A stretch of 64,000 bases of DNA from Escherichia coli (GCF_017348835.2 NZ_CP071375.1); one strand, 5' to 3'; counted from the first letter of the stretch, positions 17,863 through 20,562 are shown. Numbers: made by a program.

Positions 17863-20562
17863 TGATGCAAACCAGCCCGCTGTTAACACAGCTTATGGAA
17901 GCACTGCGCTGTCTGCCGGGCGTTGGCCCGAAGTCGGCGCAGCGTATGGCGTTCACGCTGCTTCAGCGCGATCGTAGCGGCGGGATGCGTCTGGCGCAGG
18001 CGCTCACCCGGGCGATGTCGGAAATCGGCCACTGCGCCGATTGCCGCACTTTCACCGAACAGGAAGTCTGTAACATCTGTTCGAATCCGCGTCGTCAGGA
18101 AAACGGTCAAATCTGTGTGGTGGAGAGTCCGGCGGACATTTACGCCATTGAGCAGACGGGGCAGTTTTCAGGTCGTTATTTTGTGTTGATGGGGCATCTG
18201 TCACCGCTGGACGGCATCGGTCCGGATGATATCGGGCTTGATCGTCTGGAACAGCGTCTGGCAGAGGAAAAAATCACTGAAGTGATCCTCGCCACCAATC
18301 CCACGGTTGAAGGTGAAGCTACCGCTAACTACATTGCCGAGCTTTGCGCGCAATATGACGTGGAAGCCAGCCGAATCGCTCATGGCGTACCGGTTGGCGG
18401 CGAACTGGAAATGGTCGATGGCACCACGTTGTCGCATTCCCTTGCCGGGCGTCATAAGATTCGTTTTTAAGCAAACGAGAGCAGGATCACCTGCTCTCGC
18501 TTGAAATTATTCTCCCTTGTCCCCATCTCTCCCTCATCCTGTTTTTAACCTTAAAATGGCATTATTGAGGTAGACCTACATGAAAGGACAAGAAACTCGT
18601 GGTTTTCAGTCAGAAGTGAAACAGCTTCTGCACCTGATGATCCATTCTCTCTATTCCAATAAAGAAATCTTCCTGCGTGAGCTTATCTCTAACGCCTCCG
18701 ATGCGGCGGACAAGCTGCGTTTCCGTGCGCTCTCTAACCCGGACCTGTACGAAGGTGATGGCGAACTGCGCGTTCGTGTCTCTTTCGATAAAGACAAGCG
18801 CACGCTGACCATCTCCGATAACGGCGTGGGGATGACCCGCGACGAAGTGATTGACCATCTGGGGACTATCGCTAAATCCGGTACCAAATCATTCCTCAAA
18901 TCCCTGGGTTCTGACCAGGCGAAAGACAGCCAGCTGATCGGTCAGTTTGGTGTTGGTTTCTACTCTGCGTTTATCGTGGCCGACAAAGTGACCGTGCGTA
19001 CTCGCGCGGCAGGCGAAAAACCACAAAATGGCGTCTTCTGGGAATCGGCTGGCGAAGGTGAATACACCGTTGCCGACATCACCAAAGAAGATCGTGGTAC
19101 TGAAATCACCCTGCATCTGCGTGAAGGCGAAGACGAGTTCCTCGATGACTGGCGCGTGCGTTCCATCATCAGCAAATACTCCGACCATATCGCGCTGCCG
19201 GTAGAGATCGAAAAACGCGAAGAGAAAGATGGCGAAACCGTTATCTCCTGGGAAAAAATCAACAAAGCGCAGGCGCTGTGGACTCGTAACAAGTCGGAAA
19301 TCACCGATGAAGAGTATAAAGAGTTCTACAAACACATCGCCCACGACTTTAACGATCCGCTGACCTGGAGCCACAACCGCGTTGAAGGTAAGCAGGAGTA
19401 CACCAGCCTGCTGTACATCCCGTCCCAGGCTCCGTGGGATATGTGGAACCGTGATCATAAACACGGCCTGAAACTGTATGTTCAGCGTGTGTTCATCATG
19501 GACGACGCAGAACAGTTCATGCCGAACTATCTGCGCTTCGTGCGTGGTCTGATTGACTCCAGCGATCTGCCGCTGAACGTTTCCCGTGAAATCCTCCAGG
19601 ACAGCACGGTAACGCGTAACCTGCGCAATGCGCTGACCAAGCGTGTGCTGCAAATGCTGGAAAAACTGGCGAAAGACGACGCGGAAAAATACCAGACCTT
19701 CTGGCAACAGTTTGGCCTGGTACTGAAAGAAGGTCCGGCGGAAGATTTCGCTAACCAGGAAGCGATCGCCAAACTGCTGCGTTTTGCTTCTACTCATACC
19801 GATTCTTCTGCGCAGACCGTGTCCCTGGAAGACTACGTTTCCCGCATGAAAGAAGGGCAGGAGAAAATCTACTACATCACTGCAGACAGCTATGCGGCAG
19901 CGAAGAGCAGCCCGCACCTGGAACTGCTGCGTAAGAAAGGCATCGAAGTTCTGCTGCTTTCCGACCGCATCGATGAGTGGATGATGAACTATCTGACTGA
20001 GTTCGACGGTAAACCGTTCCAGTCGGTGTCTAAAGTTGACGAGTCGCTGGAAAAACTGGCTGACGAAGTTGATGAGAGCGCGAAAGAAGCGGAGAAAGCA
20101 CTGACTCCGTTCATCGACCGTGTGAAAGCCCTGCTCGGCGAGCGCGTGAAAGATGTCCGTCTGACTCACCGTCTGACCGATACGCCAGCGATCGTTTCGA
20201 CCGACGCGGACGAAATGAGCACTCAGATGGCGAAACTGTTCGCTGCGGCGGGCCAGAAAGTGCCAGAAGTGAAATACATCTTCGAACTGAACCCGGATCA
20301 CGTACTGGTGAAACGTGCGGCAGATACTGAAGATGAAGCGAAGTTCAGCGAGTGGGTAGAACTGCTGCTGGATCAGGCGCTGCTGGCAGAACGCGGCACG
20401 CTGGAAGATCCGAACCTGTTTATTCGTCGTATGAACCAGCTGCTGGTTTCCTGATGTAATGCCGGATGACCTTCGTGTCATCCGGCATTTTTCTTTTCAT
20501 CATCTGCACTTTCCGCAAATTATCTCGCCATTAACCGTTTCAGCCTCAGGTGCCTTTCTTGA

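What the first reader, a model, noticed from the sequence alone, without database searches (positions are those of the whole stretch)
18476..18528. recR-distal hairpin abuts/overlaps the -35 of the htpG sigma-32 promoter
The inverted repeat cgagagcagg-atcac-cctgctctcg (18476-18500) just after the recR stop runs into the cTTGAAA -35 element (18500-18506) of the htpG heat-shock promoter. There is no U-tract, so it may attenuate read-through only partially; read-through from dnaX-ybaB-recR into htpG and its interplay with sigma-32 initiation could be tested.
Basis: inference. Interest (0 to 1): 0.3.

Follow-up and report, generated by a model that had tools for sequence, protein, structure and literature searches.

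The report
recR mRNA-end hairpin fused to htpG promoter
A small RNA hairpin that marks the end of the E. coli recR message sits directly against the heat-shock promoter of the next gene, htpG; the hairpin is real and conserved, but it is an ordinary kind of element packed unusually tightly.

Summary
A perfect 10-bp stem with a 4-nt loop lies at 18476-18499, 5 nt after the recR stop. Next come C18500 and TTGAAA (18501-18506), the -35 of the htpG sigma-32 promoter. The -10, CCCCATCT, is at 18521-18528, and the published start site is 18535.

The window is E. coli core genome. In 69 of 108 Enterobacterales species sampled (Enterobacteriaceae and Erwiniaceae), a hairpin of quite different sequence ends 0-1 nt before TTGAA. 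About 95% of stem positions pair, with many compensatory changes. G·U wobbles favour the + strand 62 to 11. The selected object is therefore an RNA structure in the recR 3' UTR.

Published Term-seq places an RNA 3' end at 18502, 3 nt after the stem. Full-length reads show operon variants ending with recR and an htpG unit starting at 18535, with no recR-htpG transcript.

There is no U tract: 3 of 8 bases are T, and the tail score is -2.49 against -5.51 for the htpG terminator. It is therefore unresolved whether the hairpin terminates transcription weakly or only protects ends made further downstream.

Verdict: a conserved 3'-end hairpin of a known kind. Interest is modest, and the coupling to sigma-32 is untested.

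The parts
17865..18470 (+). recR coding sequence (stop TAA at 18468-18470), last gene of the (apt-)dnaX-ybaB-recR transcription units
   Evidence: ORF list. Annotated as recR in E. coli genomes. Operon variants in PMC6131387.
18471..18475 (+). 5-nt spacer GCAAA between the stop codon and the stem. CAA (18472-18474) can pair with TTG of the -35. CAA is invariant or nearly so in Enterobacteriaceae.
   Evidence: pairs 2-33, 3-32 and 4-31 never or hardly vary.
18476..18499 (+). recR-distal RNA hairpin: 10-bp perfect stem (18476-18485 with 18490-18499) and loop ATCA (18486-18489)
   Evidence: Covariation. Strand test.
18502..18502 (+). Mapped RNA 3' end (RNA ends ...CUCUCGCUU), MG1655 coordinate 495042, inside the -35 hexamer
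   Evidence: Adams et al. 2021 Supplementary file 1, LB OD 0.4 sheet: mean 1798 reads, classified 'primary' for recR. Coordinate offset verified.
18500..18506 (+). CTTGAAA, -35 element of the htpG sigma-32 promoter. It occupies the place where a terminator U tract would be.
   Evidence: CTTGAAA in 103 and CTTGAAT in 5 of 108 species.
18521..18528 (+). CCCCATCT, -10 element of the sigma-32 promoter (14-nt spacer at 18507-18520)
18535..18535 (+). htpG transcription start (MG1655 495075). The window differs from K-12 at 18534 (T instead of A).
   Evidence: SMRT-Cappable-seq supplement of PMC6131387. Comparison with K-12.
18535..18579 (+). htpG 5' leader, with GAGG Shine-Dalgarno at 18567-18570. 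From the stem end to the ATG the sequence is C-rich and G-poor (C 0.29, G 0.11).
18580..20454 (+). htpG coding sequence
20460..20497 (+). Canonical htpG terminator, used here for contrast: 12-13-bp hairpin at 20460-20487 followed by TTTTTCTTTT
   Evidence: tail score -5.51. Listed as a terminator at 497013 in PMC6131387.

Best explanation
The hairpin is the 3'-end element of the dnaX-ybaB-recR messages. When RNA polymerase coming from upstream transcribes 18476-18499, the RNA folds into a GC-rich stem-loop of terminator type. Steady-state recR transcripts end 3 nt after it, at 18502.

In Enterobacteriaceae and Erwiniaceae the intergenic region is so compact that the -35 element (C)TTGAAA of the htpG sigma-32 promoter takes the place of the terminator's U tract. 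The hairpin therefore does two things. It defines and stabilises the recR mRNA end. It also keeps upstream housekeeping transcription separate from the heat-shock-controlled htpG unit, which starts at 18535.

Shown here: the structure, its conservation as + strand RNA, its fixed position next to the -35, the mapped 3' end, and the separate htpG start.

Inferred: polymerase actually stops at or just past the hairpin (weak intrinsic termination on CUUGAAAUU), rather than the end being cut back to the hairpin afterwards. Also inferred: the close packing is inherited compaction, not a selected coupling.
For: Structure:
- -22.6 kcal/mol, z = -5.4, with a perfect 10-bp stem.

Conservation:
- 69 of 108 Enterobacterales species have a hairpin (-11.6 to -22.9 kcal/mol; -12 to -23 when folded with the TTGAAA included) that ends -1 to +3 nt from the first T of TTGAA, mostly 0 or 1.
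- Ungapped alignment of 26 Enterobacteriaceae: 96.2% of cells paired against 81% in shuffles and 34-44% when the partner is slid. 9 of 13 pairs change on both sides.
- 12 Erwiniaceae: 95% paired, and 7 of 10 pairs change on both sides.

Strand:
- 62 G·T positions against 11 A·C positions in register (p = 9e-10, not corrected for phylogeny).
- The + strand hairpin is the more stable in 49 of 63 sequences.

Transcript ends:
- Term-seq 3' end at 495042 (+), window 18502.
- No minus-strand 3' end at MG1655 495030-495059 in the same tables.

Separate transcription units:
- Operon variants ending with recR, an htpG unit with TSS at 495075, and no recR-htpG variant.

Other families:
- The remaining 39 species (Yersiniaceae, Pectobacteriaceae, Hafniaceae, Morganellaceae and others) also carry a stable hairpin after recR, some with a clear T tract. 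It lies 18-165 nt upstream of the same promoter.
- The hairpin therefore belongs to recR, and the fusion with the promoter is the derived state.
Against: - There is no U tract. CTTGAAAT has 3 T in 8 nt. The tail score is -2.49, against a random mean of -1.98 and -5.51 for the htpG terminator. The terminator scan does not call the site.
- A 3' end only 3 nt from the stem is closer than expected for release by an intrinsic terminator. It fits trimming by 3' exonucleases (Dar & Sorek 2018, PMC6061677).
- The Term-seq peak is weak (about 1800 reads) and listed for only one of three growth conditions.
- SMRT-Cappable-seq under-samples long and rare transcripts, so the absence of a recR-htpG variant does not measure read-through.
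- The hairpin starts 5 nt after the stop codon, so a ribosome at the stop would prevent folding (inference from ribosome footprint size). That could lower termination.
- The fixed position next to the -35 is not by itself evidence of selection. The junction offers only 1-2 insertion sites, so seeing none of about 6 observed insertions there is expected by chance (about 0.14 expected).
Confidence: 0.6

Rival explanations
1. The hairpin is a protective stem-loop only. Polymerase reads through it. Transcription is ended further downstream, either by Rho loading on the C-rich, G-poor untranslated leader, or by the htpG terminator followed by endonuclease cleavage. PNPase and RNase II then trim the RNA back to the hairpin, which produces the 3' end at 18502.
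For: - No U tract.
- The 3' end lies immediately after a stable stem.
- C 0.29 against G 0.11 between the stem and the ATG, with the same bias across the group (0.29 against 0.14).
- This is exactly the class described by Dar & Sorek 2018: precise 3' ends after stable stem-loops without uridines, with C-over-G enrichment downstream and dependence on PNPase and RNase II.
Against: - No Rho termination region naming recR or htpG appears in Adams et al. Supplementary file 2. Strong htpG transcription could mask one.
- Only about 77 nt of untranslated RNA lie before the htpG start codon, and the htpG ribosome-binding site should protect read-through RNA.
- No recR-htpG full-length reads are listed.
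- The C-richness is largely imposed by the sigma-32 consensus itself (CCCCAT).
Confidence: 0.3
2. The placement of hairpin against -35 is itself functional, as the first reader suggested and further. One version: partial, condition-dependent read-through feeds htpG and interferes with, or adds to, sigma-32 initiation. Another version: polymerase released at the hairpin is handed directly to the promoter for re-initiation.
For: - The hairpin end stays within -1 to +3 nt of TTGAA in all 69 species, while the stem sequence turns over completely.
- In the one species with a 12-nt insertion (L082), the extra bases lie upstream of the hairpin and not between hairpin and -35.
- The 3' end falls inside the -35 hexamer.
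- From my own knowledge, not checked here: single-molecule work published in 2020 reported polymerase sliding on DNA and re-initiating after intrinsic termination.
Against: - The junction is a tiny target, so the lack of insertions is expected by chance.
- 39 species run the same promoter without an adjacent hairpin.
- recR-operon transcription is weak compared with htpG: Term-seq gives about 1800 reads, and htpG has its own well-used start site. Any contribution would be small.
- No data show a change with heat.
Confidence: 0.07
3. The inverted repeat acts in DNA. It would be a palindromic operator for a dimeric regulator, or a cruciform, lying at -37 to -60 of the htpG promoter.
For: It is a perfect palindrome positioned where activators or alpha-CTD contact promoters.
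Against: - The sequence is not conserved while the pairing is.
- Wobble positions are strongly biased to G·T on the + strand (62 to 11), which matters only in RNA.
- An RNA 3' end maps at its foot.
Confidence: 0.02
4. It is a chance inverted repeat with no function.
For: None beyond its small size.
Against: - z = -5.4.
- 0.3 perfect hairpins of this size are expected per window.
- Compensatory changes occur in two families.
Confidence: 0.01

Closest known systems
Intrinsic (Rho-independent) transcription terminators
   Same: - GC-rich stem of 8-11 bp with a 3-8-nt loop, just after a stop codon.
- An A-rich stretch (CAAAC) upstream.
- An RNA 3' end mapped next to it.
- Related species carry the same hairpin with a T tract (Rahnella, Acerihabitans, Pectobacterium, Moellerella).
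   Different: - The 7-8-nt U tract is missing. Its place is taken by the promoter -35 (CUUGAAAU).
- The tail score is -2.49, against -5.51 for the neighbouring htpG terminator.
- The mapped end lies 3 nt rather than about 6-8 nt from the stem.
U-poor 3'-terminal protective stem-loops of Rho-dependent transcripts (Dar & Sorek 2018, PMC6061677)
   Same: - A stable stem-loop with the same geometry as a terminator.
- A precise 3' end immediately downstream.
- Few uridines.
- C-over-G bias downstream.
   Different: - Rho dependence and exonuclease dependence are not shown for this site.
- The downstream sequence is a promoter plus a short leader of a strongly translated gene, which leaves little room for Rho.
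Sigma-32 (RpoH) heat-shock promoters, with htpG as a classic member
   Same: CTTGAAA-N14-CCCCATCT, with a start site 7 nt downstream. It is conserved in all 108 species.
   Different: In group A the region upstream of the -35 is a GC-rich hairpin that belongs to the preceding gene. In the other families it is A/T-rich sequence.
Overlapping operon boundaries such as frd-ampC in E. coli (recalled from memory: the frd terminator doubles as the ampC attenuator)
   Same: One hairpin is shared between the end of one unit and the control region of the next in a compact intergenic region.
   Different: In frd-ampC the hairpin lies downstream of the ampC start and attenuates ampC itself. Here it lies upstream of the -35 and is not part of the htpG transcript.

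Membership tests
Intrinsic terminator | Stable GC-rich RNA stem-loop | tested here: met
   10-bp stem. -18.9 kcal/mol for the hairpin alone and -22.6 kcal/mol with flanks, z = -5.4.
Intrinsic terminator | U-rich tract of 7-8 nt immediately 3' of the stem | tested here: not met
   CTTGAAAT has 3 T in 8 nt. Tail score is -2.49 against a random mean of -1.98 and -5.51 for the htpG terminator. Not called by the scan. In group A, 65 of 69 species have 3 T or fewer.
Intrinsic terminator | RNA 3' end in vivo at the terminator | tested here: met
   Term-seq 3' end at 495042, window 18502. It lies only 3 nt from the stem, so trimming cannot be excluded.
Intrinsic terminator | Factor-independent release of polymerase in vitro | not testable with these tools
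   Needs in vitro transcription.
Protective 3' stem-loop of Rho-dependent transcripts | Precise 3' end immediately after a stable stem-loop without a uridine tract | tested here: met
   The class is described.
Protective 3' stem-loop of Rho-dependent transcripts | C-rich, G-poor (rut-like) sequence downstream | tested here: inconclusive
   C 0.29 against G 0.11 over 80 nt. The bias is partly dictated by the sigma-32 consensus, and the stretch is short and ends at a strong translation start.
Protective 3' stem-loop of Rho-dependent transcripts | Read-through rises when Rho is inhibited, and ends lengthen in pnp or rnb mutants | tested here: inconclusive
   No recR or htpG entry in the Rho-region table of PMC7815308. 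Strong htpG transcription would mask an effect. The Dar & Sorek tables are not held.
Sigma-32 promoter | -35 TTGAAA and -10 CCCCATNT separated by 13-15 nt | tested here: met
   18501-18506 and 18521-18528 with a 14-nt spacer. Conserved in 108 of 108 species.
Sigma-32 promoter | Transcription start about 7 nt after the -10 | tested here: met
   TSS at 495075, window 18535.
Sigma-32 promoter | Dependence on RpoH and heat induction | not tested
   This is established knowledge for htpG (Cowing et al. 1985; Nonaka et al. 2006), recalled from memory. Neither paper was read here.
Conserved structured RNA element | Base pairs maintained by compensatory substitutions, with strand-specific wobble pairs | tested here: met

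The most novel reading that the evidence does not exclude
The terminator-type hairpin and the sigma-32 -35 form one selected composite element. Polymerase arriving from the replication/recombination operon would stop with its RNA 3' end inside the -35. It would then either clear or occupy the heat-shock promoter, or re-initiate there once it picks up sigma-32. Alternatively, ribosome position at the recR stop, 5 nt from the stem, would set how much read-through reaches htpG. This would link dnaX-recR transcription and translation to basal Hsp90 expression.
Probability: 0.07. Interest if true: 0.6.

Novelty: new member of a known kind. Interest (0 to 1): 0.3.

Why it matters
- It gives a clean, naturally replicated example of a terminator-type hairpin that kept its structure while its U tract was replaced by the next gene's promoter: 69 species with the fused arrangement against 39 without it.
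- That makes it a convenient test case for an open practical question. How do U-poor hairpins produce precise mRNA ends: by weak intrinsic termination, by Rho, or by trimming?
- It is also a test case for how tightly packed operon boundaries avoid promoter occlusion.
- It is relevant to users of the htpG promoter as a burden or heat sensor, because the native upstream boundary of that promoter is an RNA-end hairpin and not neutral DNA.
- It does not reveal a new kind of system.

Tried and rejected
- **Rfam.** A scan of 17000-20000 at E up to 10 gave nothing at the hairpin. The only hit was a sub-threshold STnc460 match at 17334-17423.
- **Consensus scan.** It found no sigma-70 promoter and no terminator at the site.
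- **Minus-strand terminator idea.** On the minus strand the hairpin is followed by UUUGCUU. I rejected this reading because of the G·U against A·C bias and because no minus-strand 3' end is listed.
- **RNA thermometer idea.** Rejected. The hairpin lies upstream of the htpG start site, so it is absent from the htpG mRNA, and at about -19 kcal/mol or stronger it is too stable to melt at heat-shock temperatures.
- **'Ancestral canonical terminator lost its U tract.'** I softened this claim. Only some of the non-fused species have a good T tract (mean 3.2 T in 8 nt against 2.7).
- **'No insertions between hairpin and -35 proves selection.'** Rejected as statistically empty, because the junction offers only 1-2 sites.
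- **Literature dead ends.** No text supplements are held for Dar & Sorek 2018, Choe 2022, Conway 2014 or Ceroni 2017. The TERMITe supplements do not list recR. Yeung 1990 and Mahdi & Lloyd 1989 are not held. I therefore could not check whether the original sequence papers already noted this dyad symmetry.
- **False text matches.** The 'recR' hits in Ceroni 2017 were the words 'recreated' and 'recruit'.

Full report
**What is in the sequence**

The window is E. coli core chromosome. A 401-base stretch around the finding matches 5,424 of 5,426 complete E. coli genomes at 95% identity or more and is annotated recR | htpG. The gene order is apt-dnaX-ybaB-recR-htpG-adk.

Window coordinates convert to MG1655 by adding 476,540. 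The recR-htpG intergenic region is identical to K-12 except for one base, 18534.

The layout is as follows:
- recR ends with TAA at 18468-18470.
- After the 5 bases GCAAA comes a perfect 10-bp inverted repeat: CGAGAGCAGG (18476-18485), loop ATCA, CCTGCTCTCG (18490-18499).
- The next bases are C18500 and TTGAAA (18501-18506).
- After a 14-base spacer comes CCCCATCT (18521-18528).
- htpG starts at 18580.

A longer version of the stem pairs CAA (18472-18474) with the TTG of the -35. So the structure abuts the -35 and can also overlap it.

**Is it more than chance?**

Yes.
- The + strand RNA folds at -22.6 kcal/mol with z = -5.4. None of 200 shuffles does as well.
- Perfect hairpins of this size occur at 7 places in the window, against 0.3 expected. 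One of the seven is the canonical htpG terminator at 20460-20487.

**Comparative evidence**

I collected the htpG start region from 120 Enterobacterales species with a degenerate DNA pattern. The recR-stop-to-htpG-ATG spacer could be extracted for 108 sequences in all, counting the window and K-12.

All 108 carry CTTGAA(A/T)-N13/14-CCCCA(T/C)NT, so the promoter is universal. The species then fall into two groups.

*Fused group: 69 sequences, Enterobacteriaceae and Erwiniaceae.*
- TTGAA lies 29-32 nt after the stop, with one case at 42 nt.
- A hairpin of -11.6 to -22.9 kcal/mol ends -1 to +3 nt (mostly 0 or 1) before the first T of TTGAA.
- The stem sequences differ completely between genera:

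| Genus | 5' arm / 3' arm |
|---|---|
| E. coli | CGAGAGCAGG / CCTGCTCTCG |
| Citrobacter | CGGAGGCCGC / GCGGCTTCCG |
| Pantoea | GCCGGTATC / GATACCGGC |
| Erwinia | ACGGCACG / CGTGCCGT |
| Tatumella | GCTGATGTTC / GAACATCAGC |

*Unfused group: 39 species, including Serratia, Rahnella, Yersinia, Pectobacterium, Dickeya, Hafnia, Photorhabdus and Providencia.*
- The promoter lies 51-218 nt after the stop.
- There is no hairpin next to the -35.
- A stable hairpin still follows recR, 18-165 nt upstream of the promoter. Some have a clear T tract and many do not.

**Formal tests**

The distance from the stop codon is constant, so ungapped alignments could be used. These owe nothing to any structure.

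| Alignment | Cells paired | Shuffled | Partner slid | Pairs changed on both sides |
|---|---|---|---|---|
| 26 Enterobacteriaceae | 96.2% | 81% | 34-44% | 9 of 13 |
| 12 Erwiniaceae | 95% | 81% | 26-51% | 7 of 10 |

To decide which strand is selected, I counted non-Watson-Crick positions in register over 63 distinct sequences.
- 62 are G·T, a legal wobble only in + strand RNA.
- 11 are A·C, a legal wobble only in minus strand RNA.
- The binomial p is 9e-10, not corrected for shared ancestry.
- The + strand hairpin is the more stable in 49 of 63 sequences, and the minus strand in 8.

The conserved object is therefore an RNA structure in the recR 3' untranslated region. It is not a DNA palindrome and not a minus-strand terminator.

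**Experimental data already published**

- *Term-seq (Adams et al. 2021, PMC7815308, Supplementary file 1, LB OD 0.4).* A 3' end is listed at 495042 (+) with a mean of 1,798 reads, classified as the primary 3' end of recR. The printed flanking sequence matches this locus. This is window 18502, the second T of CTTGAAA, 3 nt after the stem. It is listed for only one of three conditions and is a weak peak, in keeping with low recR expression. The same files name no Rho-termination region for recR or htpG and list no minus-strand end there.
- *SMRT-Cappable-seq (Yan et al. 2018, PMC6131387).* The supplements give an htpG unit from 495075 to 497033. They list these operon variants: apt-dnaX-ybaB(-recR), dnaX-ybaB-recR, ybaB-recR (two start sites), htpG and htpG-adk. 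None joins recR to htpG. The start at 495075 is window 18535, 7 nt after the -10, which confirms the promoter assignment.

**How it most likely works**

The hairpin is the 3'-end element of the recR-containing messages. It has the geometry of a terminator hairpin, sits just after the stop codon and carries the steady-state 3' end.

It lacks a U tract. The tail CTTGAAATTATTCTC scores -2.49 with the TransTermHP-type tail formula (recalled from memory). Random 15-mers of the window average -1.98, and the htpG terminator scores -5.51.

Two mechanisms remain open.

1. *Weak intrinsic termination* on CUUGAAAUU, followed by slight trimming.
   - For: the lack of recR-htpG full-length reads, and relatives in which the same hairpin has a proper T tract.
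2. *Read-through, then trimming.* Termination or cleavage would occur downstream, and PNPase or RNase II would trim back to the hairpin. This is the class described by Dar & Sorek 2018.
   - For: the very short distance (3 nt) from stem to 3' end, the missing U tract, and the C-rich, G-poor sequence downstream (C 0.29, G 0.11). That bias is largely imposed by the sigma-32 consensus itself.

My estimate is about 0.6 for the hairpin contributing to termination and insulation, and about 0.3 for protection only. The two are not exclusive.

The hairpin begins 5 nt after the stop codon. A ribosome sitting on the stop would prevent folding. This is inference only, but it offers a plausible way for termination to be partial.

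**Is the contact with the -35 itself functional?**

The position is kept in all 69 species of the fused group. The single 12-nt insertion seen (L082) lies upstream of the hairpin, not between hairpin and promoter.

However, the junction offers only one or two insertion sites. About six insertions were seen elsewhere in roughly 87 nt, so about 0.14 would be expected at the junction. The absence is uninformative.

The two families are sister groups, so one ancestral compaction explains the pattern. The 39 species without the fusion run the same promoter perfectly well. I therefore treat the coupling ideas as unproven and give them low probability. These ideas are read-through feeding htpG, interference with sigma-32 initiation, and polymerase hand-over.

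**Comparison with known systems and novelty**

The element works like a terminator or protective 3' stem-loop and meets the structural criteria. It fails the U-tract criterion of canonical intrinsic terminators. Its Rho and exonuclease dependence could not be tested. The promoter meets all sequence and start-site criteria of sigma-32 promoters.

The 3' end and the start site are already in published supplementary tables. I could not check whether the original recR and htpG sequence papers noted the dyad symmetry.

What appears to be new here:
- the compensatory evolution of the stem;
- the + strand RNA signature;
- the fused-versus-unfused split across Enterobacterales.

This makes it a new, well-documented member of a known kind. 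It is of modest interest, chiefly as a natural test case for U-poor 3'-end hairpins and for compact operon boundaries.

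Noticed in passing
window 20460-20497 (+): A canonical intrinsic terminator lies directly after the htpG stop (20454). It has a 12-13-bp perfect hairpin, TGCCGGATGAC...GTCATCCGGCA, followed by TTTTTCTTTT (tail score -5.51). It corresponds to the 'terminator b0473 497013' entry in the SMRT-Cappable-seq tables. I used it only as a contrast.
   Followed up: partly
window 18534: This is the only difference from E. coli K-12 in the recR-htpG intergenic region: T here, A in MG1655. It lies 1 nt upstream of the mapped htpG start site. Its effect on start-site choice is unknown.
   Followed up: no
window 18500-18579 (+): The stretch from the hairpin to the htpG ATG is strongly C-rich and G-poor (C 0.29, G 0.11), and the same holds across 69 species (0.29 against 0.14). 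It looks like a Rho-utilisation site but coincides with the sigma-32 promoter and leader.
   Followed up: partly
window 17334-17423 (+): A sub-threshold Rfam match to the Salmonella sRNA family STnc460 (25.3 bits against a gathering score of 70, E = 0.09) lies in the last ~150 nt of dnaX (dnaX ends at 17483). It is probably noise.
   Followed up: no
window 9169-9192, 26800-26826, 40677-40704, 56369-56396, 57715-57740: Five further perfect hairpins of 10 bp or more, with loops of 3-8 nt, occur in the window. One of them is an AT-rich palindrome, TACATACATT/AATGTATGTA, at 9169-9192. They are likely terminators or operators. I did not examine them.
   Followed up: no
loci L017, L030, L037, L059, L072, L087, L094, L095, L102, L111 (Erwiniaceae), first 10 nt after the recR stop: In Erwiniaceae the bases between the stop codon and the stem are conserved as (C)ACTTGC, so CTTG flanks the hairpin on both sides (CTTG-CCGG...CCGG-CTTGAAA). 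In Enterobacteriaceae the same positions are conserved as CAAAC, which can pair with the -35 TTG. The reason for either conservation is unexplained.
   Followed up: partly
L082 (Enterobacter sp. ENT03), intergenic region: A 12-nt A-rich insertion (TAAAAATCAGTAAAAAAAGT...) lies between the recR stop and the hairpin, while the hairpin still abuts CTTGAAA. Several other species carry 35-100-nt insertions in the htpG leader instead (L034, L060, L093, L118, L102).
   Followed up: partly
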